Source of the DNA: a virus
Lineage: Duplodnaviria; Heunggongvirae; Uroviricota; Caudoviricetes
Length of the DNA: 32,043 nucleotides
IMG/VR virus record: IMGVR_UViG_2713896773_000025
Reading direction: 5' to 3' (one strand)
This document shows, piece after piece, positions 230 to 32,043 of this stretch. Both the position numbers and the translations under genes were made by a program. The notes beneath the pieces were generated by a model. It was not told the origin of the DNA. It worked only from the letters and a program-made list of their open reading frames with translations, and searched no databases. Positions within the stretch are counted from its first letter, which is position 1; each line of letters opens with the position of its first letter.

Positions 230-2287
230 ATGTTCGTGACTGTTAACGAATTAGTTGGCGTCCCTGGACTGCCAACAACACAACAAGGACTGCGATACAG
301 CCTTAAAAAAAGTGCAGGCAACTCCCCTGAACTGGTTCGCAAACGTGCTGGCAGCAAAGCATTCGAGTACCACATCGACTGCCTGCCTGAACAGGCGCGT
401 GAAATAGTCAAAGCCCGGCATTATCGCGAGGTGCTGAAACAGTCTGATTGTTCATCAGCGCCGACTGCACCAAAGCGGGAAGTCACCACGACTCGCGATG
501 AACTGACGTTATTGCGGCAGTGCCCGGTATTGCTGGAGCGTGAGGTCTCTGACCTTACCGAACGCCAGAAACAGATCGCCGACGCCCGCGCATTATTAGC
601 CGCAGAGGTTGAGCGTCTTCGGGATATCGGTATGTCACGCGCATCGGCGGTTGAGTTCATCGCCAAAGAGTCACGCAAGGGCACGTTGCCGGAAAACATC
701 CAGGCTGCGGCTGATATTGCCAATGCGCGTAAAGGTTCCAGCCGTCGTGGCGTGGGCGAAAGAACACTTCAGGAATGGCTGTCTGTTTACCTTTCTACAC
801 GTCCAGGTATCGAACGCCTGGCTTTGCTGGCACCAGGCCATCTTAAAGCGCGTAAGCCTGAGCAGATTAAGTGGCTCCCTGATTTTCTCGCCCACTGGCG
901 GAAACTATCAGGCCCTTCTCTGGTGGATGCGTGGCGCTCATTCAAGACTGAATGGCAGGCTATTTATGCGGGACAGCCAGCGATGCTCGCCGTCTGTCCG
1001 TCTTATGATGCCGTGCGTCGGGCGATGGAAAAGCTACCAAAACGTGAACGCGCTCGCGGCCGTATCAGCGGTTCAGCGGCTCTGGCTTATGAGGTTTATC
1101 AGAAGCGTGACTGGTCACAAATGCCAGTAAATGGTTGCTGGATTGCGGATGGTAAATCGCTGGATATGAAAGTTGCTCATCCGGTCCATGGTCGTCCATT
1201 CACACCTGAACTGACGCTGGTTATCGATGGCCGCACCCGCTACCTGGTGGGCTGGAGCCTGGCGCTCTCAGAGAACGTCATCGCCGTAGCGGATGCCTAT
1301 CGCTACGCCATGAAATTCCACGGAAAACCTCTTTTTGTCTATTCGGATAACGGTGGCGGTGAAACCAATAAAACGCTGGATGCTGATATCACCGGTATTT
1401 TCACCCGCATGGGTATTGATCACCCGACCAGTATTCCGGGTCGACCGCAGTCACGCGGGATTATCGAACGACTGAACGCCGTAATACCGAGAGCGATTGC
1501 CAATAAATTTGATACTTACAATGGATTCGGGGCCGACCGTGAGCATGTGCGGATGACCGGTCGCGCTATCCAGTCAGCGATTAAGGCTCAGGAGAATGGG
1601 CGCGAACTCACGAGCGTACAGCGTAACGCGCTGCGTAAATTGCCGTCGTGGCAGATGCTGCTGGATACCATTGCTGAGGAAGTCGACAAATACAACAACC
1701 TGCATGAGCACAGCGAGCTACCAAAACGTAATGGTGTGCATATGACGCCAGCACAGTACCGCCGCGAGGTTCTGGCCACTGAGGGTGACGATATTGAATA
1801 TCTGACGGATATCGAGCTTCGTGAAGCCTTCATGCCGGAAATGTGCCGCACCGCCCAGCGGGGCTGGATTGACCTGATGAATAACCAGTATTTCAGCGCT
1901 GACCTGATACAGGTCGACGGTGAGGAAGTCCGGGTCGCCTATGACATTCACGACCCTGCTGCCGTCATCGTTCGTCGCATGGACGGTACTTATGTCTGCA
2001 CCGCCATCTGGAACGGCAATAAGCGTGCCGCGCTGCCAACCAGCATGATGGATATCGCCGTTGAGAAACGCCGCCAGCGTCGTCTGAAGCGCATCGACGA
2101 ACAACGGGAAGAGATTGAAGCAGAGGCAAGAGGTCTGCTTCCTGAAAGCGATATGTACCCTGATTTCGGCGCATTAATACCATCGGACGCAGAGCGTATT
2201 AATGATGCTCGGGAACATGTGTTCCTGTTCGAATCAGAGCGTGAAGAATGGCTGAAAAGTCAGGGCAATAAAAAAGCGGCCTTCTGA
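230..2287 (+). CDS. A: MuA-family DDE transposase (685 aa)
   Basis: Long ORF directly after ner; N-terminal region resembles the Mu A DNA-binding domain; size and position fit MuA. Confidence 0.9.
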   Translation: MFVTVNELVGVPGLPTTQQGLRYSLKKSAGNSPELVRKRAGSKAFEYHIDCLPEQAREIVKARHYREVLKQSDCSSAPTAPKREVTTTRDELTLLRQCPVLLEREVSDLTERQKQIADARALLAAEVERLRDIGMSRASAVEFIAKESRKGTLPENIQAAADIANARKGSSRRGVGERTLQEWLSVYLSTRPGIERLALLAPGHLKARKPEQIKWLPDFLAHWRKLSGPSLVDAWRSFKTEWQAIYAGQPAMLAVCPSYDAVRRAMEKLPKRERARGRISGSAALAYEVYQKRDWSQMPVNGCWIADGKSLDMKVAHPVHGRPFTPELTLVIDGRTRYLVGWSLALSENVIAVADAYRYAMKFHGKPLFVYSDNGGGETNKTLDADITGIFTRMGIDHPTSIPGRPQSRGIIERLNAVIPRAIANKFDTYNGFGADREHVRMTGRAIQSAIKAQENGRELTSVQRNALRKLPSWQMLLDTIAEEVDKYNNLHEHSELPKRNGVHMTPAQYRREVLATEGDDIEYLTDIELREAFMPEMCRTAQRGWIDLMNNQYFSADLIQVDGEEVRVAYDIHDPAAVIVRRMDGTYVCTAIWNGNKRAALPTSMMDIAVEKRRQRRLKRIDEQREEIEAEARGLLPESDMYPDFGALIPSDAERINDAREHVFLFESEREEWLKSQGNKKAAF

Positions 2288-2332: not shown

Positions 2333-3226
2333 ATGTCAGCTAAAAATGAACTTGTCGAACTGATGAAAGCAAAAGGTCTTAACCAGACACAGGTCGCCCG
2401 CGCCATTGGTAAGAGCTCGGCCGTAATCAGCCAGTATCTGAATAATAAATACGACGGCGATATTGTATCGCTGGAAAACGATATTCGTAGCTTTATCGAT
2501 CGTCAGCATGAAAAAGAACGTTCGGCACGTATCAGCGTCAAATTTGTTGATACCCCAACAACGCGCAAAGCCGTTGATGTTATACGCATGGCACACGTCG
2601 AAGGTGATATCAACGTGCTCTACGGCGAAGCCGGTCTGGGCAAGACGATGATTTGCAAAGCCTACGTCTCCAAATACCGGGATGCGTTGCTGATTGAGGC
2701 AGACCCTGGCTACACCGCACGGGTAGTCCTGGAAGAGCTCTGTAACCTGCTGGGGCTCAGTACGCGCGGCAATATGCACGAACTCAGCGAGGCCTGCATC
2801 AACAAGCTGCGCGACTCCGGACGCGTGCTGATTATTGATGAAGCCGAGAACCTCCCTCTGCGTGCGCTGGAATCTATCCGCCGCATCCATGACAAAACGG
2901 GGATCGGCATCGTCCTGGTTGGTATGCCTCGCCTGATTCTGAACCTCAAGGGCAAACGCGGTGAGCTCGTACAGCTCTATAGCCGTGTCGGTTTCGCCCT
3001 CAACCTCGGGCATAGCCTGCCGGGTGCTGATATTGACGTCATCGCCAGCAGCGTTCTCCCGGATGGCCTGAATGAAGACCTGAGCAAAGCGCTGTTCAAT
3101 GCGTCAAAAGGTAACGCCCGCCGATTGTTCAAGCTGCTGCGCGGTGCGGTCCGCACCAGCGCGATGAATGATGTTCCGGTCAGCGGTCATATCGTCAACC
3201 AGATAGCTGAAATGCTGATCCATTAA
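2333..3226 (+). CDS. B: MuB-like AAA+ ATPase, transposition target DNA activator (297 aa)
   Basis: Walker A GEAGLGKT and Walker B-like LIIDEAE; N-terminal HTH-like segment; GAGGAAG RBS 7 nt upstream; position immediately after A. Confidence 0.88.
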   Translation: MSAKNELVELMKAKGLNQTQVARAIGKSSAVISQYLNNKYDGDIVSLENDIRSFIDRQHEKERSARISVKFVDTPTTRKAVDVIRMAHVEGDINVLYGEAGLGKTMICKAYVSKYRDALLIEADPGYTARVVLEELCNLLGLSTRGNMHELSEACINKLRDSGRVLIIDEAENLPLRALESIRRIHDKTGIGIVLVGMPRLILNLKGKRGELVQLYSRVGFALNLGHSLPGADIDVIASSVLPDGLNEDLSKALFNASKGNARRLFKLLRGAVRTSAMNDVPVSGHIVNQIAEMLIH

Positions 3227-4370: not shown

Positions 4371-4595
4371 ATGTCTGGAAAAATTAAAGAAAATTCAGCT
4401 CGCAACAACTACGGATGCTATGCCACCGGCGCGATTCGTGCCGAACGTAATGGCGAATATTCCAGGGCTGCTGAATTATGGGGTAAAGCGTTGATGTTTG
4501 CTCGTGGCACTTCCGGTCGATTCTGGGCCACTCGTCGACTGGAGTTCTGCGCGAACGCGGCTACTCGCGGCTGGGGGATTTCGGATGAAAGCTAA
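4371..4595 (+). CDS. small regulator-like protein, possibly ANR/PerC-like (74 aa)
   Basis: Internal ATG at 4371 two nt after the upstream stop; GEYSRAAELWGKAL...ARRLEFC motif reminiscent of ANR-family small regulators; family call is tentative. Confidence 0.4.
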   Translation: MSGKIKENSARNNYGCYATGAIRAERNGEYSRAAELWGKALMFARGTSGRFWATRRLEFCANAATRGWGISDES

Positions 4596-6438: not shown

Positions 6439-6605
6439 CAAACCGCAAAGTAAGAAGACTGCTGCGCATGCCTTTCAAATTCAGTAACCGTAAAGCGATG
6501 ACAGGCTGGCCATCAACGATACCCCGGCCTGGCAACGAGTGGTGCGACAAGAAGAAACGCAGCGCTGCACAGAACCGCTGGAAAAATCATGTGAGGTTTC
6601 TCTGA
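6435..6605 (+). CDS. small basic ORF (56 aa), below the ORF-track length cutoff
   Basis: ATG at 6435 overlaps upstream stop (ATGA) and its TGA at 6603..6605 overlaps the next ATG (TGATG); coupling pattern suggests a real gene. Translation MTNRKVRRLLRMPFKFSNRKAMTGWPSTIPRPGNEWCDKKKRSAAQNRWKNHVRFL. Confidence 0.3.
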   Translation: MTNRKVRRLLRMPFKFSNRKAMTGWPSTIPRPGNEWCDKKKRSAAQNRWKNHVRFL

Positions 6606-6979
6606 TGAATATAAATAAACATTCTGAGCGTAAGCCAGTGGTTTTCATTGCCGGTCCAATGACCGGGTATCACAACTTTAACCGCGATGAATTCAACGCT
6701 GAGGCTCGCATCCTGGAAGAGCGCGGCTTCACCGTTCTCAACCCGGCCATTCTTCCAGACGGCCTGCAGCATGAGCAGTACCTGCAAATTACATTGTCCA
6801 TGCTTGAGCAGGCTGATGCGGTATTCCTGCTGAACGGGTGGGAAAAGAGCACCGGCGCTACCAGGGAGTTTGATCGCGCCTGTGAGCTAGGGCTGCTGTT
6901 CCTTTACCAGGACTGGGAAAGCGTGTCGATTGCGATCCACCGTAAGCGTCACCCATTAACGGAGGTGAGTTATGCATAG
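6605..6979 (+). CDS. DUF4406 / nucleoside 2-deoxyribosyltransferase-like protein (124 aa)
   Basis: VVFIAGPMTG near the N-terminus and overall pattern recalled from the DUF4406 family; ATG at 6605 chosen over the GTG at 6539 because of stop-start coupling. Confidence 0.55.
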   Translation: MNINKHSERKPVVFIAGPMTGYHNFNRDEFNAEARILEERGFTVLNPAILPDGLQHEQYLQITLSMLEQADAVFLLNGWEKSTGATREFDRACELGLLFLYQDWESVSIAIHRKRHPLTEVSYA

Positions 6980-7580: not shown

Positions 7581-7622
7581 GTCATTACAGCAGGCACTTC
7601 ATAAAGTGCCTGCTGTAATGAC
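7581..7622. repeat. perfect 19-bp inverted repeat with 4-nt loop
   Basis: GTCATTACAGCAGGCACTT cata AAGTGCCTGCTGTAATGAC read directly from sequence; lies between the last early accessory ORF and the gemA RBS. Confidence 0.85.
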
Positions 7623-7641: not shown

Positions 7642-8118
7642 ATGTCCACGCCAGCAAAACGAGGCCTTATAGGTGCAATTAAAGCCGGTCAGGCATATCT
7701 GGGGTGGGATGAGGTAACCTACCGTAGTGTTCTGTCTCGCTTATGCAACGGTAAAACATCATCCACTAAATGCACCCTCGACGAGCTGCAGGCTGTCAGG
7801 GAATATATGCATGACAAGGGTTTTCCTCGCTACTCAGCAAAACACGGTCGACGCCCAAAGGTTGCCAATACGCGCGAGTCAATTCTTTCTAAAATTAACG
7901 CATTACTTGCAGATGCAAAACGTCCGTGGAATTATGCCGAGAAAATGTGCGATCATATGTTTCACGTCAAATACATCGAGTGGTTGACGACTGAACAGTT
8001 AACCAAACTCATGCAGGCTCTCAGCATTGATGCGAGTCGGCGAAAAAAGCGGGAGCGTAATAATGAATCTGGAACAGGTAACGGAGCTGCTGCCATCAGC
8101 AGTGATTCAAATAGCTGA
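7642..8118 (+). CDS. gemA: GemA-like regulatory protein (158 aa)
   Basis: ATG at 7642 with AGGAG RBS; KRGLIGAIKAGQAYLGWDE...YRSVL pattern recalled from the Mu GemA/DUF1018 family; sits immediately before the Mor-like gene. Confidence 0.7.
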   Translation: MSTPAKRGLIGAIKAGQAYLGWDEVTYRSVLSRLCNGKTSSTKCTLDELQAVREYMHDKGFPRYSAKHGRRPKVANTRESILSKINALLADAKRPWNYAEKMCDHMFHVKYIEWLTTEQLTKLMQALSIDASRRKKRERNNESGTGNGAAAISSDSNS

Positions 8119-8497
8119 CCTGATAGGCTTCCCGGCGACCGAGCAGCTTCTTTCTGCTTTTGGTGGCACCACGTTCCCGATAGGTAAAGGCCTCCGCGCT
8201 ATGGGGGCCAGCCGCGCAGCCCTCCTGCGCAATACTATCGGCGATGATAAAACCCAATTACTCATCAAGAATTTCGGCGGAGAAGTTCTCTATTTACCGC
8301 GCTGTGATCGTGCCCTTCGTGAATTACGCAACCGCCGCTTTCTCGCCGAGTTCGCCGAAGTGCGTGAACAAGGTTCATCCTCTCTTATGGCCATGACCTT
8401 TCTTTGCCCTAAGTATGGATTCAGCGATCGTTTTGGATGGCAGTTACTAAGCCAGCACAGACAAAACACATCAATCAATCAACAAGAACTTTTTTAA
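8063..8497 (+). CDS. mor: Mor/C-family transcriptional activator (144 aa)
   Basis: GGEVLYLPR...LRELRNRRFLAEF...YGFSDR resembles the Mor/C core GG.VYIPR...L..DL.I...F.G.N..EL...YG; overlaps the gemA 3' end. Confidence 0.75.
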   Translation: MNLEQVTELLPSAVIQIADLIGFPATEQLLSAFGGTTFPIGKGLRAMGASRAALLRNTIGDDKTQLLIKNFGGEVLYLPRCDRALRELRNRRFLAEFAEVREQGSSSLMAMTFLCPKYGFSDRFGWQLLSQHRQNTSINQQELF

Positions 8498-8510
8498 AAA
8501 GGTAATATAC

Positions 8511-9011
8511 ATGGAGTTTTTAATTGCTTTAATTATATTCGGTGCTTCTGTTGCTGTTTACAAAGATGCTATCACCAATAACATTGCAAGACCTGCCCGT
8601 TGGGGGATTGGTTCAGCATTCATATTCTTCATTGTCATTCCATTGTATCTATTTAAAAGAAAAAAATTAATCGGAAGTGCATTATCAGACTCGGATGATG
8701 CCAGTAGTGTCCAGGGCGGAAAAAATGTTAGCCCCTTATCAGTTTATGTCCTGATGTTCATTTTAGCATTTATTGCCCCAGTGATTAATTTTTACAAAGG
8801 TGATTTACCTGGCTGTGATTCATCCGATGTCCATTCTGTTCTTACAGAGTTGCTGAATGGAGAAAAATTCTCTGAGCCCGCGCAAATGAGTTATGACCGG
8901 GTTAATGCAGTGAGACACTGTAACTTGACTGTTTCTGATAGAGTGTTTTCATATACAGTGAAATGGTACAGTGAAGAGAAAGATCAGTTTGTTGTACAGT
9001 TTGACAACTAA
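8511..9011 (+). CDS. AT-rich membrane protein, candidate moron (166 aa)
   Basis: Three hydrophobic helices plus a roughly 70-aa C-terminal soluble domain; gene is markedly more AT-rich than its neighbours. Confidence 0.6.
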   Translation: MEFLIALIIFGASVAVYKDAITNNIARPARWGIGSAFIFFIVIPLYLFKRKKLIGSALSDSDDASSVQGGKNVSPLSVYVLMFILAFIAPVINFYKGDLPGCDSSDVHSVLTELLNGEKFSEPAQMSYDRVNAVRHCNLTVSDRVFSYTVKWYSEEKDQFVVQFDN

Positions 9012-9013
9012 TT

Positions 9014-9091
9014 CCACTGAACCTCTTCACCTGATTATTCACCTAACCCGATGAAATACTGACGCCATCCCTTTTTAACCGGATGGCGTTA
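9014..9091 (+). promoter_or_regulatory. late-promoter-like element, copy 1: conserved motif CCACTGAACCTCTTCACC (9014..9031) plus hairpin 9060..9091 burying the endolysin start codon
   Basis: Motif is one of three near-identical copies; hairpin arms TGACGCCATCC / GGATGGCGTTA (one G-U pair) with a 10-nt loop; ATG at 9091. Confidence 0.55.
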
Positions 9092-9735
9092 TGCTTTTAA
9101 CACTCCCACAATTTCAGCGTGCAGCAGCTCTTTCGCCAGTGATGGCGCAACGATGGTTTGAACCATTCGGTAAAGCCACCGCTGAATTCGAAATTAATAC
9201 ACCCGCCAGACTTGCCGCCTTTATTGCTCAAACCGGCCATGAAAGCGCGGGTTTCAGTCGGCTCAGTGAAAATCTCTATTACTCTGATGCTGAGCGCGTG
9301 GCGCGTATTTTCCGCAGCGACTTCGATCTCAATAAGAATCGTATTATCGAGCCCTGCGAGATTGAATTTGCCCGACGCTATACCCGTAACCCTGAAAAAA
9401 TGGCGAATTATGTTTACGCAAATCAGGGGGGTAACGGTAATGAAGCATCAGGCGATGGCTGGCGCTTTCGCGGACGTGGCCTGATTCAGATTACCCTGCG
9501 CAATAATTACCGCCTTTGCGGTAAGGCGCTGGGCCTCGATCTCATCGCGAATCCCGATTTGTTACTGGAGTATCTCAACGCAGCCCGCAGCGCTGCCTGG
9601 TACTGGAAGGCAAATGGCTGCAACGAGCTGGCTGACAAAGGCAATTTTCTGGCCGTAACCCGGCGTATCAACCCTCCGGCTGAAGGTCAGGCTGACCGCG
9701 TGGCGCGGCTGAATGTCGCTAAGGCGGCGCTATGA
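9091..9735 (+). CDS. endolysin, glycoside hydrolase family 19 (chitinase-like) type (214 aa)
   Basis: AAFIAQTGHESAGF catalytic-region motif typical of GH19-type phage endolysins; first gene after the late-promoter-like element. Confidence 0.78.
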   Translation: MLLTLPQFQRAAALSPVMAQRWFEPFGKATAEFEINTPARLAAFIAQTGHESAGFSRLSENLYYSDAERVARIFRSDFDLNKNRIIEPCEIEFARRYTRNPEKMANYVYANQGGNGNEASGDGWRFRGRGLIQITLRNNYRLCGKALGLDLIANPDLLLEYLNAARSAAWYWKANGCNELADKGNFLAVTRRINPPAEGQADRVARLNVAKAAL

Positions 9736-9995
9736 AAATATCTCTGCGCGATCTGGTGACGAACCCGGCCACCGGTCGTCTCTCTACGTCAGACACCATC
9801 GTTTTTCTGGCCTTCCTGGTCAGTTCCTTCGTACTGGTCTGGCTCACCGTTACCCGCCCCGAAACTCCTGGTGAGCTGTATCTCACCTATCTGGGCGCGT
9901 GGGTGGCTCAGAGTCAGGCATCAAAACATATGTCCATCAAACGAGCCAGAGAGGTGCGCGATGTGGGAAGCAGCCCAGAAAATCCTGAGGGTTAG
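9732..9995 (+). CDS. single-TM lysis-associated protein, holin-like (87 aa)
   Basis: One hydrophobic helix IVFLAFLVSSFVLVWLTV; located between endolysin and spanin genes; role inferred from position only. Confidence 0.4.
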   Translation: MKISLRDLVTNPATGRLSTSDTIVFLAFLVSSFVLVWLTVTRPETPGELYLTYLGAWVAQSQASKHMSIKRAREVRDVGSSPENPEG

Positions 9996-10593
9996 CTGGA
10001 AACCGCTGCTCGTCGTCGTGGTTCTGGCAGGCTGCGGGATATGGTTCGGCACCTTCCTCACAGGCAACAAGCTGGACGCTCAGGCGCTGGCCTTCAGCCA
10101 GGAGAAGCAACGCCTGACTGATGGTTTCAGTGAAAAAGAACGGCAGTGGGATCAGGAGAGGCTCAGCGCTGCAAATCAGTATGCAGCTGACCTGAAGGCT
10201 GCACTTGATAAGCAGAACGCCTGGCAGCAGAAAGCGGATGCGCTGACCCGCGAGCTGGCTGAAAAGCAAAAGGCACATGACGAGACTGTTCGCGATCTTA
10301 AAAAGAGGCTTAAAGATGCACTTGATAAAGATGGTCCTGGTTATACCGGCATTGGCCCTGGCGGCCTGCAGCTCTTCCGTGAAGCCTTTGGCTACTCAGG
10401 ATCCGAAAGCCACCCCGCTGGTCAGCATCTGCCAGCCACCGCCAGCGGCGCTCCTGGTCATACCGGCCAGACCACAGGCACCGGTGGCGGACTCTCCCCC
10501 ACTGGAATAGTGTCGTTTTCAGCGGAATACGGCGCATGGTGCCAGCTCATTGAGGGCAGGCTGCAGGCAATAAATGAGTATTACAGGAAGTGA
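9961..10593 (+). CDS. i-spanin, Rz-like (210 aa)
   Basis: ATG at 9961 gives a short cytoplasmic N-terminus, a TM helix (PLLVVVVLAGCGIWFGTFL) and a long charged coiled-coil-like periplasmic region; contains an embedded lipoprotein ORF. Confidence 0.7.
   Translation: MWEAAQKILRVSWKPLLVVVVLAGCGIWFGTFLTGNKLDAQALAFSQEKQRLTDGFSEKERQWDQERLSAANQYAADLKAALDKQNAWQQKADALTRELAEKQKAHDETVRDLKKRLKDALDKDGPGYTGIGPGGLQLFREAFGYSGSESHPAGQHLPATASGAPGHTGQTTGTGGGLSPTGIVSFSAEYGAWCQLIEGRLQAINEYYRK
10316..10510 (+). CDS. o-spanin, Rz1-like lipoprotein embedded in +1 frame of the i-spanin (64 aa)
   Basis: MHLIKMVLVIPALALAAC with a lipobox-like LAAC, Pro-rich mature part and a C-terminal-proximal Cys; entirely inside 9961..10593 in another frame. 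Confidence 0.65.
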   Translation: MHLIKMVLVIPALALAACSSSVKPLATQDPKATPLVSICQPPPAALLVIPARPQAPVADSPPLE

Positions 10594-10844
10594 ACAACAT
10601 CATGACTCTTGATATGGCCTTTCAGATTGCGCTGGCGCTGGCTGCAACCTTCGGCACCATCTGGATACGCCGTCTGCAAAAAGACATTACCGACCTGGAA
10701 AAGGCGGTTGATCGCATCCGGGATGAATACCAGCGCCGTGAGGATGCGAAAAGTAACTACACCGCAATGATGGATGCGATGAGGGAGCTGCGAGCGGCTA
10801 TCGAGCGCATTGATAACAAACTGGACAGGAAACAGGACAAATGA
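10590..10844 (+). CDS. small membrane/coiled-coil protein, Mu-family (84 aa)
   Basis: N-terminal hydrophobic helix then charged helical region; ATGA-type overlap with the i-spanin stop. Confidence 0.5.
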   Translation: MNNIMTLDMAFQIALALAATFGTIWIRRLQKDITDLEKAVDRIRDEYQRREDAKSNYTAMMDAMRELRAAIERIDNKLDRKQDK

Positions 10845-11125
10845 AAGCCAGACATAAGCGCAGAACCCGCCGCGCGACAATCAGCCAGAGCGAGCAGGAA
10901 ACGCTGAGCCGGATTTCCGCTCAGCTCGAACGCCTGCAGGCCCCCGTCAGCCCGGACATTCTGGGCGGGATTAATGACAAGCTGAGCCGGATTGATGTTC
11001 GCCTCACGACCATCAGCGACGATGCGGCTCGCCGTGGTGCGTCTGCCGGTGCGATTACGGGTGGAATTGCAGGCGGTGTCATCACGGTGGCGATTCTGCT
11101 CATTCGCGCAAAACTGGAGCTGTGA
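10841..11125 (+). CDS. small protein with C-terminal TM helix (94 aa)
   Basis: Basic N-terminus, Gly/Ala-rich C-terminal hydrophobic segment AGAITGGIAGGVITVAILLI; start overlaps upstream stop. Confidence 0.5.
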   Translation: MKARHKRRTRRATISQSEQETLSRISAQLERLQAPVSPDILGGINDKLSRIDVRLTTISDDAARRGASAGAITGGIAGGVITVAILLIRAKLEL

Positions 11126-11126
11126 T

Positions 11127-11627
11127 ATGGCGCATCCGCAGGAAACACGGGAAAAACTGCGACGATCTTATATCTTCGGCCAGATGTCGCTTGAAATCGC
11201 ATCCGCTCAGGCTGGCGTGGCATTTGCGACAGCTCGCCGCTGGAAGAAGGAAGCCCAGGACGCAGGCGATGACTGGGATAAGTTACGCGCCGCACACCTT
11301 ATGGCCGGGAATGGGCTTGAAGAGATTGGCCGCGCCATTCTCACCGGGTTAATGACCCAGTATCAGACCACGCTGGAACTGCTCACAACCGAGTCTCAGC
11401 TCCCTCCGGGAGAGCGCGTCGAGCTTCTGGCAAGCCTTGCCGATGCATTTAACAAAGCCGTCGCAGCCAACAAGAAAATACTGCCGGAGGTGAGTCAGCT
11501 GGCGGTAGCGTTGGATGTTATCCAGAAGCTCAGCGCGTTTGTTGCAGAGCACTATCCGAAGCACCTGGCGGCATTCGTTGAGATCCTTGAACCATTCGGC
11601 AAGGAAATGGAACAACACTATGGCTGA
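11127..11627 (+). CDS. Mu gp27-like protein (DUF1804-like), putative small terminase component (166 aa)
   Basis: ATG at 11127 two nt after upstream stop; HTH-like N-terminus; position immediately upstream of the large terminase. Confidence 0.55.
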   Translation: MAHPQETREKLRRSYIFGQMSLEIASAQAGVAFATARRWKKEAQDAGDDWDKLRAAHLMAGNGLEEIGRAILTGLMTQYQTTLELLTTESQLPPGERVELLASLADAFNKAVAANKKILPEVSQLAVALDVIQKLSAFVAEHYPKHLAAFVEILEPFGKEMEQHYG

Positions 11628-16972: not shown

Positions 16973-17191
16973 ATGCATTACGGGAGCGGGCAACTGTACA
17001 CATTCAAAGCTTTCCTTGATTATTTCACCCCGCAGCAGTGGGTTTTCATTGGCATCTTAGGGGGGCTGGTTATAAAAGTTGCTGAGTGGTTCACTGACCG
17101 ATACTTTGCCCGCAGGCGTCAGTCTGCTAAACCCGATAAGCCGACAACCAAAGCGATCCTCAGCGATAATCCACTGAACCTCTTCATCTGA
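16973..17191 (+). CDS. doubtful 72-aa ORF in the G-I intergenic region
   Basis: Weak RBS; one hydrophobic helix; its 3' end overlaps the conserved late-promoter motif, so it may be spurious. Confidence 0.25.
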   Translation: MHYGSGQLYTFKAFLDYFTPQQWVFIGILGGLVIKVAEWFTDRYFARRRQSAKPDKPTTKAILSDNPLNLFI

Positions 17192-17227
17192 ACCTCCCCG
17201 CAGTGGTGCCGTATCGTCGGCACCATG
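17171..17227 (+). promoter_or_regulatory. late-promoter-like element, copy 2: motif CCACTGAACCTCTTCATC (17171..17188) plus hairpin 17204..17225 ending in the I-gene start codon
   Basis: Stem GGTGCCG / CGGCACC (17205..17211 / 17218..17224) extendable by a T-A pair that uses the A of the ATG at 17225; loop TATCGT. Confidence 0.55.
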
Positions 17228-18340
17228 AAAAAGACACTCATCGCTTCACTCACCCAGGAAATTAACACCGCTACTCCCGGTGTCATTCAGCTCTTTCCGG
17301 CTGGTGAATTCCGCGCCCGTGATGGTCGCCCGACCGAATGCGCCGCCTGGCTGATGACGCGGGAAATTGCAGAGCGCCTTATTGCCGCTGCTGATGCCCG
17401 CGCCACCCCCTATGTCCTTGACTACGAACACCAGACCCTTCGGGCCGCTAAAAACGGTTTGCCTGCGCCTGCAGCTGCATTCTTCAAAAAGCTGGAGTGG
17501 CGGGATGGCGAGGGTTTGTTCGCCATCGATGTCGAGTGGACAGCCGCTGCGGCTGCAATGGTCGAGGCGAAAGAGTATCGCTTTATTTCCCCCGTATTTT
17601 CTTACGACAAAACCGGTCAGGTGCTGGAGTTGCTTAACGCCGCGCTGACCAATACACCAGCGGTGGACGGGATGGAGGAAGTGTTACTTGCTGCCGCCTC
17701 CCTGATGGCCGCGCATTTAACCACAGAGGGTCAGACCGAAATGGATGAAGAATTTCTCAATGAGCTACTGAGCAACCTGCGCTGGATGCTCAATCTGCCA
17801 ACCGCCTCAACGAAAGAAGAGATTATGGCTGAGCTGCAAAAAATCATCACCATGATTTCCAATGGCCAGGGGACTGCAGCGGCGTCGGTCAGTCTGCTGG
17901 ATATCCTGAACCAGAACGCGCAGAGCATCGCCGACCTGTCAGCGAAACTCGACACGCCTGACCCGGCTAAGTGGGTTTCGGTGGAGGTCATGCATTCAGC
18001 CGTTCAGCAGGCAACAGAGCGTGCAGGTGCGGGTAATACCGCCGCACTCGCCACGCAACAGGCTGAAGCGTTGATTACGGTTGCCCTCGGCGACGGTCGT
18101 CTGCTTCCGGCACAGCAGGCATGGGCTGCGTCACTGGCGAAATCCGATCCGGCCAGTCTTACCGCCTTTATCGAAAAAGCGCCAAAGATTGCCGCACTGA
18201 CGACCAGTCAGACTCAGGGGCAACCGCCTGCAGGCCTTCCGTCACACCCGTCACAGGGTGCTGAAGATGATGCGATTGACCCGGCCATCTGCTCCATGAT
18301 GGGCAATGACCCGGAAAGCGTCGCGAAATACCTCAAATAA
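17225..18340 (+). CDS. Mu I-like head protease/scaffold protein (371 aa)
   Basis: Position between G-like and major capsid genes; Ala-rich scaffold-like C-terminal half. Confidence 0.78.
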   Translation: MKKTLIASLTQEINTATPGVIQLFPAGEFRARDGRPTECAAWLMTREIAERLIAAADARATPYVLDYEHQTLRAAKNGLPAPAAAFFKKLEWRDGEGLFAIDVEWTAAAAAMVEAKEYRFISPVFSYDKTGQVLELLNAALTNTPAVDGMEEVLLAAASLMAAHLTTEGQTEMDEEFLNELLSNLRWMLNLPTASTKEEIMAELQKIITMISNGQGTAAASVSLLDILNQNAQSIADLSAKLDTPDPAKWVSVEVMHSAVQQATERAGAGNTAALATQQAEALITVALGDGRLLPAQQAWAASLAKSDPASLTAFIEKAPKIAALTTSQTQGQPPAGLPSHPSQGAEDDAIDPAICSMMGNDPESVAKYLK

Positions 18341-29015: not shown

Positions 29016-29077
29016 CCACTGAACCCCTTCACCGATAATTTAAATTTCCATGCCGGTAGTATTACGGCATGGAAATG
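29016..29077 (+). promoter_or_regulatory. late-promoter-like element, copy 3: motif CCACTGAACCCCTTCACC (29016..29033) plus 12-bp hairpin 29044..29076 covering both candidate start codons
   Basis: Stem ATTTCCATGCCG / CGGCATGGAAAT with loop GTAGTATTA; ATGs at 29069 and 29075 are inside the 3' arm. Confidence 0.55.
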
Positions 29078-29419
29078 TTGATTGATCCAACGACCGGCGA
29101 TTATACCGGCGACAGCTCAGACTCTTTAGCGAATGCCGTCTACTTACGGCTGATGACGCCCCTTGGCTCATGGTGGGCTGATCCAACTCTGGGCTCTCTT
29201 TTGCATACACTCCGCCGCGAAAAGGATGTGTCTCGCGTTCAACAACTCGCGGTGCAGTATTCGCGGCAGGCCCTGCAACCGATTATTGACGACGGTCGCG
29301 CCCAGTCCATTTCCGTTACTGCAGAGCACTGGCAAAAAGGCTGGATGCTGCTTCATATCACCGTCACGTCTGCGAGCGGAACGCCGCAGACCTGGAAATA
29401 TCCGGTTAAGGTCAGCTGA
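29069..29419 (+). CDS. baseplate protein, Mu gp46 / GP46-family (116 aa)
   Basis: Size and position before the baseplate J-like gene. Confidence 0.68.
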   Translation: MEMLIDPTTGDYTGDSSDSLANAVYLRLMTPLGSWWADPTLGSLLHTLRREKDVSRVQQLAVQYSRQALQPIIDDGRAQSISVTAEHWQKGWMLLHITVTSASGTPQTWKYPVKVS

Positions 29420-30486: not shown

Positions 30487-31055
30487 GCTACTTCACGCTG
30501 TTAAATCGTCTGCTGCCACTTGTTTCGTACAGCCCGGGCCAGCCTCTGCTTGATGCATCATTGCGATCTGAATCAGGTGTTTTTGAGACTCTCGATGCGT
30601 CTGCAGGGCTTGTTGAAGGTGGAGTTACTCCATTTTATGCACGCAGCCTTTTGTATGACTGGGAACGCGTCCTGGACCTTACTCCTGCTGAAGGTGCGAC
30701 ATACCAGCAACGCCAGCAGCGTGTACTGGCTAAACTGGCTGAAGTCGGTGGTCTCAGTATTCCGTACTTTACTCAGTTGGCAAGCAACCTTGGCTACATC
30801 ATCACAATTGATGAACCGCAACCTTTCAGGGCGGGAGTTGGCCGCGCCGGTGATCGCCTCTGGGTTGAAGACATTATCTGGGTCTGGCGCGTCAATATTC
30901 AGAACTCAGGAACTCAATCCTATCGCTTTCGCTCAGGCAGTTCAGCTGCAGGTGAGCGCCTGACAACGTTTGGTGATCCGATTATTGAAGACGTCTTCCG
31001 TGATCTCAAACCAGCCCATACATTTTGCTACTTCGCATATCAGGAGAATGAATAA
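30483..31055 (+). CDS. tail protein, Mu gp48-like (DUF2313-like) (190 aa)
   Basis: Position between baseplate J-like gene and tail fibre; ATGA overlap. Confidence 0.68.
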
Positions 31056-31804
31056 TGCGGCCCTTAATGCCACCGGTGCAGACGCCGGATAATCTTTTCC
31101 ATGATGGTAATCCGCTCACAGGTGAGCTGGGGACCATTGTTGATGCTGAGCATCTGAATAACGTGCAGGGGGCTGTCAGAGATGCGCAGTCGGAGCTTAT
31201 TACTGTCCTGAACGCTGCCGGTATTAATGTTGATCCTTCTAAACAAAACCAGTTATTAACAGCACTAAAAGCGCTGTTACTGAGTCGCTCAAATCCGTTT
31301 GGCGATATCAAATCGGATGGCACCGTGAAAACGGCTCTCGAAAATCTTGGTTTGGGAGAAGGCTCAGCGTTACCCGTTGGTGTACCTGTTCCGTGGCCTT
31401 CAGCCACTCCGCCAACAGGCTGGCTGAAATGCAATGGTGCGCCTTTTTCTGCCGAAGAGTATCCGGAACTGGCAAAAGTTTATCCGACAAATGAATTGCC
31501 AGATTTACGTGGTGAGTTTATTCGTGGCTGGGATGATGGGCGAGGAGTTGATACGGGGCGCAGAATTCTGTCTGCTCAGGGGGATGCTATTAGAAATATT
31601 ACAGGCTGGTTTGGTGCGCACGCCACAGTGGTGGCTAAACCTCCGTTTGTTAAATTTTCTGCGCCGGAAATAGCAGAAAATGTCGGGGTTGGAGGGGGGA
31701 GTACGCGAGACGCTGTCAAACTTGATTTATCGTTATCGGTCCCCACGGCAAGCGAAAACCGCCCACGCAGTATCGCATTTAACTATATCGTGAGGGCTGC
31801 ATAA
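31055..31804 (+). CDS. short tail fibre protein with phage tail-collar-type domain (249 aa)
   Basis: [31 protein letters not shown]...[19 protein letters not shown] pattern characteristic of the tail-collar fibre domain. Confidence 0.75.
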
Positions 31805-32043
31805 TGACACAGGCAAAATTAAACAGTGAATTTATTGCCACAGTAGCGGGTGATATTACCGTCTATAACTATGACAACACGACACGGGAATACATTTCAT
31901 CATCAACAGAATATCTTGCCGTTGGCGTCGGTATCCCGGCATGTTCTTGTTTAGATGCACCAGTTACACATAAAGCTGGTTATGCAATCTGCCGTTCTGC
32001 AGATTTTAACTCATGGGAATATGTGCCAGACCATCGCGGTGAA
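31804..32043 (+). CDS. tail fibre assembly protein, Tfa-like, truncated by window end
   Basis: N-terminus VYNYDNTTREYI...GIPA...DAP...AGYAICRSADFNSWEYVPDHRG follows the pattern of lambdoid/Mu-type tail fibre assembly proteins; no stop codon before the window ends. Confidence 0.7.
   Translation, partial: MTQAKLNSEFIATVAGDITVYNYDNTTREYISSSTEYLAVGVGIPACSCLDAPVTHKAGYAICRSADFNSWEYVPDHRGE

What the first reader, a model, noticed from the sequence alone, without database searches (positions are those of the whole stretch)
8063..8497. Only one Mor/C-family activator is visible
Mu has two paralogous activators, Mor then C, with C encoded just after mor. Here the gene after the Mor-like ORF is an unrelated membrane protein and the late-promoter motif follows directly. 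This suggests one activator drives the late promoters, or that a different small protein serves as the second activator.
Basis: inference. Interest (0 to 1): 0.4.

Follow-up and report, generated by a model that had tools for sequence, protein, structure and literature searches.

The report
One Mor activator in Mu-like prophage
This Mu-like prophage really does carry only one Mor/C-type transcription activator, which most likely switches on its three late promoters directly; that is the usual arrangement among relatives of phage Mu, so the finding is correct but ordinary.

Summary
ORF 8063-8497 is a 144-aa Mor/C-family protein (Pfam Mor above its cut-off; hhalign to Mu Mor+C 92.8%). Pfam and custom-profile scans of all six frames found no second homologue. 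None was found either in prophages that share identical proteins with the window and reach host DNA on both sides, or in a complete 94.6%-identical E. coli prophage.

Next comes an unrelated 3-TM ORF. An 18-nt motif (CCACTGAACCNCTTCAYC) starts 3 bp after its stop codon. The motif has exactly three copies, in front of the endolysin, protease I and gp46 genes. Each lies 23 nt before a -10-like hexamer, which would centre its TGAA-N4-TTCA dyad at -43.5, as for Mor and C in Mu.

The same arrangement is conserved in relatives from Enterobacterales to Pseudomonas. Three Morganellaceae prophages have two paralogues of this subfamily and two motif variants. The window carries only the "first-paralogue" type, at all three promoters.

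The best reading is a two-tier cascade: early operon, then Mor, then late promoters.

It is not new. Among sequenced phages, only Mu and its near-identical kin showed two copies, and the lack of C in Mu-like phages has been published (Niu 2015). No experiment supports any step.

The parts
7581..7622 (+). Perfect 19-bp-stem hairpin in the 67-bp gap upstream of gemA. It may be an attenuator or processing site that delays gemA-mor expression (inference).
   Evidence: stem of 19 pairs, loop of 4; gap sequence.
7642..8118 (+). GemA (gp16) homologue, the last early gene before mor. It overlaps mor by 56 nt.
   Evidence: Pfam PF06252 at E 1.9e-19.
8063..8497 (+). The only Mor/C-family activator (144 aa). 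It has a GGxxxYxP linker motif, a C-terminal HTH and a C-terminal QQELF.
   Evidence: Pfam Mor at E 1.6e-8, above the cut-off. PHROG 836 at E 1.8e-39. hhalign to Mu Mor+C gives 92.8% probability, E 4e-7.
8511..9011 (+). Cargo ORF of 166 aa with three predicted TM segments. It is unrelated to Mor/C and sits in a variable slot between mor and the first late promoter.
   Evidence: No Pfam or PHROG family. Hydropathy analysis, and unrelated proteins at the same place in L008 and L001. A lipoprotein occupies the slot in Morganellaceae relatives.
9014..9067 (+). Late promoter 1 (lysis genes). Motif at 9014-9031 with dyad TGAA 9018-9021 / TTCA 9026-9029. TGn plus -10 AATACT at 9052-9060. Predicted +1 at about 9067, which puts the dyad centre at -43.5.
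   Evidence: The motif-to-hexamer spacing of 23 nt is fixed in relatives while the spacer sequence varies.
9062..9089 (+). 9-bp-stem hairpin (ACGCCATCC / GGATGGCGT) that ends 1 nt before the endolysin ATG and overlaps the predicted +1.
   Evidence: Present with compensating changes in L012, L013, L016 and L017.
9091..9735 (+). GH19 endolysin, the first late gene.
   Evidence: Pfam PF00182 at E 2e-13.
16973..17191 (+). Small holin-like ORF of 72 aa. Its last codons contain motif copy 2.
   Evidence: PHROG 9876 'holin' at E 2.2e-6. It is not called as a gene in the RefSeq relative.
17171..17224 (+). Late promoter 2 (head protease/scaffold gene I). Motif at 17171-17188, -10 TATCGT at 17212-17217. 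An inverted repeat, GGTGCCG / CGGCACC, flanks the -10. The ATG follows the -10 after 7 nt.
17225..18340 (+). Mu-like protease I gene, probably expressed from a leaderless or near-leaderless transcript.
   Evidence: Pfam Mu-like_Pro at E 7.6e-93 among the window ORFs. Geometry.
29016..29068 (+). Late promoter 3 (baseplate/tail-fibre genes). Motif at 29016-29033, -10 TAGTAT at 29057-29062, lying in the loop of the hairpin CATGCCG / CGGCATG. The ATG follows the -10 after 6 nt.
29069..29419 (+). gp46-like baseplate gene, the first gene after promoter 3.
   Evidence: PF07409 GP46 on the identical gene in L003.

Best explanation
The prophage runs a two-tier lytic cascade with a single Mor/C-family activator.

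1. The early operon (ner, A, B ... gemA) also transcribes the Mor-like gene 8063-8497 and the cargo membrane ORF behind it.
2. The Mor-like protein binds, as an oligomer, the dyad TGAA-N4-TTCA inside the conserved 18-nt motif CCACTGAACCNCTTCAYC.
3. That dyad would be centred at -43.5 in three promoters that have a -10 hexamer but no -35. These lie in front of the lysis genes (9014), the head protease I gene (17171) and the baseplate gene gp46 (29016).
4. By analogy with Mu Mor and C, the protein recruits sigma-70 RNA polymerase there.
5. No C-like second activator and no middle promoter exist.

Shown here: there is one homologue, the motif has three copies, and its position, spacing and conservation are as described. 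Inferred: binding, activation, the start sites and the oligomeric state.
For: Single homologue:
- Pfam and custom-HMM scans of all frames found one.
- The flanks in identical or near-identical prophages have none.

Family membership:
- Pfam match above the cut-off.
- hhalign to Mu Mor+C: 92.8%, E 4e-7.
- Four of the five invariant linker residues (G72, G73, Y77, P79; PMC2582627).
- A C-terminal Q-x-x-L-F that is nearly invariant in the subfamily. It resembles the MuC clamp-binding motif QPDLF (PMC12867686).

Promoter architecture:
- Three exact or 1-mismatch copies of the 18-nt motif against 0.04 expected.
- Each copy is followed after exactly 23 nt by a -10-like hexamer: TGnAATACT, TATCGT, TAGTAT.
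- With +1 placed 7 nt after the hexamer, the dyad centre falls at -43.5. This is the position published for Mor at Pm and for C at the late promoters (PMC4287176; PMC2582627).
- The three positions parallel Mu's Plys and PI. The third lies before gp46 rather than at Mu's PP, which sits inside gene N upstream of P (gp44).

Conservation:
- An unbiased search for 14-mers shared between the region just after mor and the region 6.5-10 kb further on recovers the same motif in relatives from Enterobacterales, Pseudomonas and Neptunomonas.
- The motif-to-hexamer spacing stays fixed while the spacer sequence diverges.

Natural control:
- Morganella, Photorhabdus and Xenorhabdus prophages carry two paralogues (Mor1, a lipoprotein gene, Mor2, then the lysis genes).
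- They have two motif variants. CCACTGAACCCCTTCAAC occurs only upstream of Mor2. yTGCTGAACCCyCTCAAC occurs at the lysis and protease promoters.
- The window's protein groups with the Mor1 proteins (44-45% identity against 39-40% to Mor2).
- All three of its promoters carry the Mor1-type variant.
- The window's lysis promoter (motif, TGAAATACTGA, hairpin) is visibly homologous to the promoter upstream of Mor2 in those phages.

Generality:
- 135 phage records hold this subfamily, each exactly once.
- Of 54 records matching Mu C, the two-copy records listed are all Mu or near-identical to it.
Against: - No transcription, binding or start-site data exist for this phage or any close relative. Every functional step is by analogy.
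- Sequence similarity to Mu Mor and C is low (20-25% identity). BLASTP gives E 0.002 and 0.017. A family-only profile does not reach them in the PDB.
- The dyad is short, with 4-bp half-sites.
- At promoters 2 and 3 the -10 lies inside an inverted repeat and only 6-7 nt before the ATG. If these promoters are real, the transcripts would be leaderless, which is unusual in enterobacteria.
- The grouping with Mor1 has only moderate bootstrap support: 52% and 64% for the two clades in 200 NJ replicates.
- The right end of the source prophage itself is not in the assembly.
Confidence: 0.8

Rival explanations
1. A second activator that is not homologous to Mor/C, encoded by one of the small ORFs, takes the place of C. 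The Mor-like protein would switch on that gene rather than the late promoters.
For: Many small ORFs have no known function. One early ORF (4371-4595) has a weak match to a PHROG 'transcriptional activator' (E 8.5e-4), and its counterpart in the E. coli relative is named an ANR-family regulator. DUF1804 (11127-11627) is labelled a DNA-binding protein.
Against: There is only one repeated promoter-like motif class, and it sits at all three late positions. There is no motif-bearing promoter in front of any small regulator gene. The gap after mor is 13 bp. In relatives that do have a three-tier cascade, the second activator is a Mor paralogue with its own motif variant. DUF1804 is the usual Mu gp27-like terminase-associated protein and lies downstream of late promoter 1.
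Confidence: 0.07
2. A second Mor/C paralogue exists in the source prophage beyond the right end of the window, which coincides with the end of the contig.
For: The window stops inside the tail-fibre assembly gene at the contig end. About 2-3 kb of the source prophage is therefore unseen.
Against: Five prophages with an identical gp48, one of them on the same scaffold as an identical transposase and Mor, end with fibre, assembly protein, an inverted fibre segment and a Gin-like resolvase. Host genes follow, and no HMM hit was found there. The complete E. coli relative has the same layout. In Mu and in the two-paralogue relatives the second activator lies next to mor, not at the right end.
Confidence: 0.03
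3. The prophage is a defective derivative that lost its C-like gene by deletion and can no longer express late genes properly.
For: The window's lysis promoter is homologous to the promoter that drives the second paralogue in Morganellaceae prophages. This is compatible with a deletion that fused that promoter to the lysis genes.
Against: All three late promoters carry the variant that fits the retained activator. A simple deletion would not produce that. The identical transposase is listed in 415 blocks of the collection, and the four loci examined are inserted at different chromosomal sites, which implies recent transposition. All late ORFs are intact. Single-copy phages of the same subfamily have been isolated as inducible phages, including SuMu and Mannheimia 3927AP2.
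Confidence: 0.05
4. The three-copy motif is not an activator site. It could be the target of a host factor, a transposition or packaging signal, or part of an RNA-level element together with the hairpins that follow it.
For: Each copy is followed by an inverted repeat next to the start codon. At promoters 2 and 3 the proposed -10 lies within that repeat. No binding data exist.
Against: The fixed 23-nt distance to a TAnnnT-type hexamer is kept while the spacer diverges across hosts as distant as Pseudomonas and Neptunomonas. The -43.5 geometry equals that of Mor and C. The motif variant tracks the paralogue type in phages with two activators. The copies sit only at operon starts that correspond to, or lie near, Mu's late promoters.
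Confidence: 0.05

Closest known systems
Phage Mu Mor and C (Mor/C family, Pfam PF08765; structures 1RR7, 9L0X, 9L0Y)
   Same: A small protein encoded right after gemA. It shares the GG..Y.P linker, the C-terminal HTH and a C-terminal Q..LF like MuC. Its target would be a short dyad centred at -43.5 in promoters that have a -10 but no -35. The targets sit before lysis and head genes and among the baseplate genes.
   Different: Only 20-25% identity to either protein. There is an extra 9-residue insert before the HTH and an extra GG-strand module in the N-terminal half. The site is TGAA-N4-TTCA, not Mu C's TTAT-N5-6-ATAA, and it is unlike Mu's Pm dyad. There is one gene instead of two and no middle operon promoter. 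The third late promoter sits before gp46 rather than inside N, and there is no com/mom promoter.
Single-Mor Mu-like phages: Haemophilus SuMu, Mannheimia vB_MhM_3927AP2 and phiMhaMu2, and the Pseudomonas D3112/B3/JBD/MP38 group
   Same: The same Mor subfamily (30-37% identity by tblastn), with one copy per genome. Late lysis genes lie downstream of mor and there is no C gene. Niu et al. 2015 state this explicitly for 3927AP2, phiMhaMu2 and SuMu.
   Different: In the Pasteurellaceae phages lys follows mor immediately. In the Pseudomonas and Neptunomonas prophage loci examined, the motif follows mor almost directly. The window has a 3-TM cargo gene in between. Hosts and structural modules also differ: the D3112-like phages are siphoviruses.
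Klebsiella phage ST405-OXA48phi1.1 (MK388859), the closest sequenced phage
   Same: The same gene order (GemA, Mor, a 159-aa ORF, GH19 lysin). The Mor protein is 74% identical. A related motif, CCACTGAAGCCCCTCAAT, lies before the lysin gene and another before gene I.
   Different: The Mor ORF is not annotated in the GenBank record (gap 8395-8785). The ORF in the cargo slot is unrelated.
Two-paralogue prophages of Morganella morganii, Photorhabdus cinerea and Xenorhabdus ehlersii (L022, L023, L027)
   Same: The same subfamily. The first paralogue groups with the window protein, and its motif variant, -10 and hairpin match the window's lysis promoter.
   Different: They keep a Mu-like three-tier layout with a second paralogue and a second motif variant at the late promoters.

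Membership tests
[quoted passage not shown] | Significant match to the family profile | tested here: met
   Pfam Mor at 34.9 bits against a cut-off of 24.9, E 1.6e-8. hhalign of the subfamily alignment, built without Mu sequences, against Mu Mor+C gives 92.8% probability, E 4e-7, over 102 columns. PHROG 836 and 532, both 'late transcriptional activator'.
[quoted passage not shown] | Small protein (about 100-150 aa) with an acidic N-terminal half and a basic C-terminal half (PMC2582627) | tested here: inconclusive
   The size is met at 144 aa. The charge asymmetry is weak: the N-terminal half has 6 acidic and 6 basic residues (pI 6.1), the C-terminal half 8 acidic and 10 basic (pI 8.9).
[quoted passage not shown] | Invariant linker residues G-G-x3-Y-x-P-x-G between the dimerisation and HTH domains (C residues G70, G71, Y75, P77, G79; PMC2582627) | tested here: met
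   The sequence GGEVLYLPRCD has G72, G73, Y77 and P79. The fifth position is Cys81 instead of Gly, and this Cys is invariant in the subfamily. Four of five are met.
[quoted passage not shown] | C-terminal helix-turn-helix DNA-binding domain | tested here: met
[quoted passage not shown] | Overall fold like Mor (1RR7) or C (9L0X) | tested here: inconclusive
[quoted passage not shown] | Binds a dyad element centred at -43.5 of promoters that lack a -35, and activates sigma-70 RNA polymerase | not testable with these tools
   The geometry is consistent. The dyad TGAA-N4-TTCA lies 23 nt upstream of a -10 hexamer at all three sites, which gives -43.5 if +1 is 7 nt after the hexamer (PMC4287176; PMC2582627). 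Binding and activation were not tested.
[quoted passage not shown] | Clamp-binding motif at the N- or C-terminus (Qx[DE][LM]F / QPDLF; PMC12867686) | tested here: met
   The C-terminus is QQELF, and Q140, L143 and F144 are nearly invariant or invariant in the subfamily. No N-terminal DLF is present. The function was not tested.
Mu-type three-tier cascade (Mor, then middle operon with C, then late promoters) | A second paralogous activator encoded downstream of mor | tested here: not met
   There is no second hit in any frame and none in the flanks of relatives.
Mu-type three-tier cascade (Mor, then middle operon with C, then late promoters) | A Mor-dependent middle promoter between mor and the next gene, distinct from the late promoters | tested here: not met
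   The gap is 13 bp (8498-8510), with no motif copy there or inside the 3' end of mor.
Single-activator Mu-like (transposable) phages | One Mor-family gene per genome, next to gemA, with lysis genes downstream and no C | tested here: met
   The window and its relatives fit this. 135 of 135 phage records with this subfamily have one copy. The layout is described for 3927AP2, phiMhaMu2 and SuMu (PMC4553209).

The most novel reading that the evidence does not exclude
Within one Mor subfamily, nature offers matched two-tier and three-tier versions of the same lytic cascade. Morganellaceae prophages use two paralogues with two operator variants. The window's lineage kept, or only ever had, the first-paralogue type, and all of its late promoters carry that paralogue's operator. 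A Buttiauxella prophage (L033) has only the second-paralogue type together with its operator variant. If the orthology is right, late regulons have been rewired wholesale from one paralogue's operator to the other's. In addition, the head and baseplate operons would start with conserved leaderless transcripts whose start codons are masked by hairpins in read-through RNA.
Probability: 0.4. Interest if true: 0.5.

Novelty: new member of a known kind. Interest (0 to 1): 0.25.

Why it matters
On its own the finding matters little. A single Mor-type activator is the normal state of Mu-like phages, and Mu's Mor-plus-C pair is the exception. The window adds one more example, and the published literature already notes the lack of C in such phages.

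Its use is practical:
- It gives a clean, testable regulon for a prophage that is widespread in Enterobacteriaceae: one activator, three promoters, a defined 18-nt operator and predicted start sites.
- The comparison with two-paralogue relatives gives a natural system for asking how activator-operator specificity diverges and how a regulatory tier is gained or lost.
- It is also a warning against using Mu as the template when annotating Mu-like prophages.

Tried and rejected
- Single-sequence phmmer of Mu Mor, Mu C and the window protein against the six-frame translation. It was too insensitive even to link the window protein to Mu (E of about 2-3), so it says nothing about absence.
- A subfamily-only profile against PDB sequences gave no Mor or C hit at E up to 10. 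The earlier hit was circular, because that alignment contained Mu Mor and C.
- Megablast of the region against the phage collection found only a 76.6%-identical 750-bp stretch in one Klebsiella phage.
- Looked for a middle promoter after mor. The gap is 13 bp and has no motif.
- Looked for weaker motif copies. Eight further 2-mismatch matches to the 13-nt core exist, giving 11 in total against 2.4 expected. None has the CCA flank or a usable -10 at the 23-nt spacing, and all lie inside genes.
- The generic sigma-70 and terminator scan did not exceed its shuffled controls and missed the activator-dependent promoters, as expected.
- Compared the motif with Mu's Pm and Plys sequences and found no resemblance.
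- A first pure-Python repeat search timed out and was redone with numpy.
- A literature search for FluMu gave nothing useful.
Full report
**What the window is.** The window is a Mu-like (transposable) prophage read from ner to the tail-fibre genes, with all genes on the plus strand. The order is Ner-like HTH, transposase A (230-2287), B (2333-3226), about twenty small early ORFs, GemA, a Mor-like ORF, a membrane ORF, a GH19 endolysin with spanins, terminase, portal, F, G, protease I, head and tail genes, and baseplate. The source contig (GCA_001309485.1, LDYI01000145.1) ends where the window ends. The nearest sequenced phage is Klebsiella phage ST405-OXA48phi1.1. A 94.6%-identical complete prophage splits ydbL in E. 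coli FDAARGOS_1303.

**Check of the observation: the ORF itself.** ORF 8063-8497 encodes 144 aa. It matches Pfam Mor (PF08765) at E 1.6e-8, 34.9 bits against a gathering score of 24.9. It matches PHROG 836, 'late transcriptional activator', at E 1.8e-39. Pairwise similarity to Mu Mor and Mu C is weak (BLASTP E 0.002 and 0.017; about 20-25% identity). By contrast, Mu Mor and C are 37% identical to each other. An alignment of 34 subfamily members that contains no Mu sequence aligns to Mu Mor+C by hhalign with 92.8% probability, E 4e-7, over 102 columns.

The protein keeps four of the five invariant linker residues of the family (GGEVLYLPRC; PMC2582627) and the C-terminal HTH. It ends in QQELF. 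The Q..LF is nearly invariant in the subfamily and resembles the C-terminal clamp-binding motif QPDLF reported for MuC (PMC12867686). The ATG at 8063 is the start used by the 144-145-aa homologues. The gene overlaps gemA (7642-8118) by 56 nt, which is the position of mor in Mu.

**Check of the observation: no second copy in the window.** I scanned 142 plus-strand stop-to-stop segments of at least 44 aa against Pfam-A at E up to 1. I did the same for 149 minus-strand segments of at least 55 aa. Mor matched only the segment 8003-8494. Three HMMs were run without filters on every six-frame segment of at least 25 aa: the subfamily plus Mu Mor/C, the subfamily alone, and Mu Mor+C alone. In the window, the two profiles that include subfamily sequences hit only that segment, and the Mu-only profile gave no hit at all at E up to 1. 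The combined model recovered both Mor and C in Mu, used as a control.

**Check of the observation: outside the window.** Four prophages with an identical transposase, each inserted at a different chromosomal site, show on the left only a 189-aa leftward gene (presumably the repressor) and then host genes. Each has one Mor. Five prophages with an identical gp48 include one on the same scaffold as an identical transposase and Mor. They end on the right with tail fibre, assembly protein, an inverted alternative fibre segment and a Gin-like resolvase, then host DNA, with no HMM hit. The complete E. coli relative has one annotated Mor-family gene and the same right end, without com/mom. The one gap is that the right end of the source prophage itself is not assembled.

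**The gene after mor and the motif.** ORF 8511-9011 (166 aa) has three hydrophobic segments and no family match. The same slot holds unrelated secreted proteins in the E. coli relative and in the Klebsiella phage. It holds a lipoprotein in Morganellaceae relatives. It is empty in Pseudomonas and Neptunomonas relatives, where the motif follows mor directly. It is therefore a variable cargo slot.

Three bp after its stop codon begins CCACTGAACCTCTTCACC. This 18-mer occurs exactly three times in the window, with at most one mismatch (9014, 17171, 29016; 0.04 expected). The copies lie in front of the endolysin gene, the protease I gene and gp46. Weaker matches lack both the flanks and a -10.

**Promoter anatomy.** Each copy is followed after exactly 23 nt by a -10-like hexamer. 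These are TGnAATACT (9052-9060), TATCGT (17212-17217) and TAGTAT (29057-29062). No -35 is present. The motif contains the dyad TGAA-N4-TTCA. With +1 placed 7 nt after the hexamer, the centre of the dyad is at -43.5. That is the position published for Mor at Pm and for C at Plys, PI, PP and Pmom (PMC4287176; PMC2582627). The start sites are assumed, not mapped.

**Comparative evidence.** A scan of one genome per species returned 32 loci that encode relatives of the protein. I searched without a template for 14-mers shared between the 1.6 kb after mor and the region 6.5-10 kb further on. This recovers the same motif class at the lysis-proximal and protease-proximal positions in most loci, from Enterobacterales to Pseudomonas and Neptunomonas. 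Across these loci the 23-nt spacer diverges freely, but its length and the hexamer ([AG]ATACT before lysis genes, TAnnnT before gene I) are kept. This is the footprint expected of an activator-dependent promoter.

**A natural control.** Three loci carry two paralogues of this subfamily: Morganella morganii, Photorhabdus cinerea and Xenorhabdus ehlersii. Their order is GemA, Mor1, a lipoprotein gene, Mor2, then the lysis genes. They also carry two motif variants. CCACTGAACCCCTTCAAC occurs only upstream of Mor2. yTGCTGAACCCyCTCAAC occurs at the lysis and protease promoters. This mirrors the Mor, C, late-promoter logic of Mu, although Mu's own pair clusters apart, as an outgroup, in a crude midpoint-rooted NJ tree.

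In that tree the window protein falls with the Mor1 proteins (44-45% identity against 39-40% to Mor2). A Buttiauxella prophage with a single activator and the late-type variant falls with the Mor2 proteins. Bootstrap support is only moderate, at 52% and 64%. The window's three promoters all carry the Mor1-type variant. Its lysis promoter (motif, TGAAATACTGA, hairpin) is visibly homologous to the promoter upstream of Mor2.

**Most likely mechanism.** The cascade has two tiers. The early operon expresses Mor, and Mor directly activates the three late promoters. I put this at about 0.8. It rests on anatomy and conservation. Binding, activation and the start sites are inferred by analogy with Mu.

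**Rivals.**
- A non-homologous second activator (0.07). There is no second motif class and no promoter in front of a small regulator gene.
- A paralogue in the unassembled right end (0.03). The relatives argue against it.
- A defective deletion derivative (0.05). The matched operators, the many insertion sites and the inducible single-copy relatives argue against it.
- A motif with some other role (0.05). The fixed spacing and the match between motif variant and paralogue type argue against it.

[quoted passage not shown] The system is not a member of the Mu-type three-tier cascade, because both the second paralogue and the middle promoter were tested for and not found. It belongs to the single-activator Mu-like phages.

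That group is large. A tblastn search of the window protein against 50,697 phage records finds 135 records, each with one place. They include the Pseudomonas D3112/JBD/MP38-like phages, Ralstonia phages, SuMu, Mannheimia 3927AP2 and two Klebsiella phages. Mu C finds 54 records and 68 places. Every two-place record listed is Mu or a near-identical relative (D108, SfMu, the Yersinia vB_YpM phages, PhiR68_1, Mu_3F6). BcepMu, phiE255, and the Vibrio, Shewanella, Pasteurella and other phages have one.

Niu et al. 2015 state that in 3927AP2, phiMhaMu2 and SuMu the lys gene follows mor directly and C is lacking (PMC4553209). Cazares et al. 2014 assign a single Mor among the core genes of the Pseudomonas group (PMC4378225). 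RefSeq and PHROGs already name these proteins 'late transcriptional activator'.

**Verdict.** The arrangement is ordinary for Mu-like phages and has been noted in print, so this is a new member of a known kind, with an interest score of about 0.25. The more interesting by-products are the defined operator, the coexistence of two-tier and three-tier variants with matched operator variants in one subfamily, and the apparently leaderless head and baseplate operons. I did not find these described, but they rest on sequence comparison alone.

Noticed in passing
window 17205-17227 and 29049-29071; relatives L011, L013, L016, L017, L021-L023, L027, L029, L033, L034, L036, L038, L039: At the protease I and gp46 promoters the -10 hexamer ends only 6-7 nt before the ATG, and no Shine-Dalgarno sequence is present. 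This implies leaderless or near-leaderless late mRNAs. The -10 sits in the loop or between the arms of a 7-bp inverted repeat whose 3' arm abuts or includes the ATG. The hexamer-to-ATG spacing is conserved as far as Pseudomonas and Neptunomonas. Read-through transcripts could have the start codon masked, whereas promoter-initiated ones would not.
   Followed up: partly
L022 9995-11517; L023 about 9947-11522; L027 about 9567-11164: Prophages of Morganella morganii, Photorhabdus cinerea and Xenorhabdus ehlersii carry two tandem paralogues of this Mor subfamily, separated by a lipoprotein gene. They have two operator variants. This looks like a Mu-like three-tier cascade that may have arisen independently of Mu's Mor/C pair.
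   Followed up: partly
window 8105-8320 (protein residues 15-49 and 53-87): The N-terminal half of the Mor-like protein contains an internal repeat. IADLIGFPATEQLLSAFGGTTFPIGKG resembles LRNTIGDDKTQLLIKNFGGEVLYLPRC (BLASTP E 2e-4). This gives a second GG-strand module that Mu Mor and C lack; it appears as an insertion in the hhalign alignment. The AF2 model shows two short strands, at 37-39 and 75-77.
   Followed up: partly
window 8480-8494 (protein C-terminus QQELF): The C-terminal Q-x-x-L-F is conserved throughout the subfamily. It resembles the beta-clamp-binding motif QPDLF of MuC, whereas Mu Mor ends in QPSLL. The single activator may therefore couple late transcription to replication, as reported for MuC (PMC12867686).
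   Followed up: no
window 8511-9011; L008 21507-21986; L001 8785-9264: The slot between mor and the first late promoter holds unrelated genes in otherwise closely related prophages. The window has a 3-TM protein, while the E. coli and Klebsiella relatives have two different secreted 159-aa proteins. This is a moron-type cargo site that would be expressed with the early operon.
   Followed up: partly
window 7581-7622: A perfect 19-bp-stem hairpin with a 4-nt loop, and no T-run on the plus strand, lies in the gap just upstream of gemA. It could delay or process gemA-mor expression. In the Mu record a 'semi-early promoter' is annotated at the equivalent place.
   Followed up: no
window 9062-9089: A 9-bp-stem hairpin ends 1 nt before the endolysin ATG and begins 5 nt upstream of the predicted start of the late transcript. 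Only read-through RNA from the early operon could form it fully. The Morganellaceae counterpart is followed by a T-run, like an intrinsic terminator.
   Followed up: no
window 16973-17191: A 72-aa ORF between G and I matches a PHROG holin family (E 2.2e-6), and its last codons contain late-promoter motif 2. In the RefSeq relative a minus-strand hypothetical gene is annotated there instead.
   Followed up: no
L001 (MK388859.1) 8340-8771: The Mor gene of Klebsiella phage ST405-OXA48phi1.1 is not annotated in the GenBank record. There is a gap between the features that end at 8395 and start at 8785, although the ORF is intact and 74% identical to the window protein.
   Followed up: yes
window 31055-32043; L042-L046 10573-13554: The right end of this prophage type carries an invertible tail-fibre/assembly segment with a Gin-like resolvase. 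The fibre C-termini differ between otherwise identical prophages. There is no com/mom module.
   Followed up: partly
window 230-2287: The exact transposase protein is listed in 415 blocks of the assembly collection. In the four loci examined it is inserted at different chromosomal sites. This points to a recently active, widely spread prophage.
   Followed up: no
window 4371-4595 and 6605-6979: The early region encodes a small ANR-like protein with a weak 'transcriptional activator' match (named an ANR-family regulator in the relative). It also encodes a DUF4406, nucleoside 2-deoxyribosyltransferase-like protein (E 3.1e-27).
   Followed up: no
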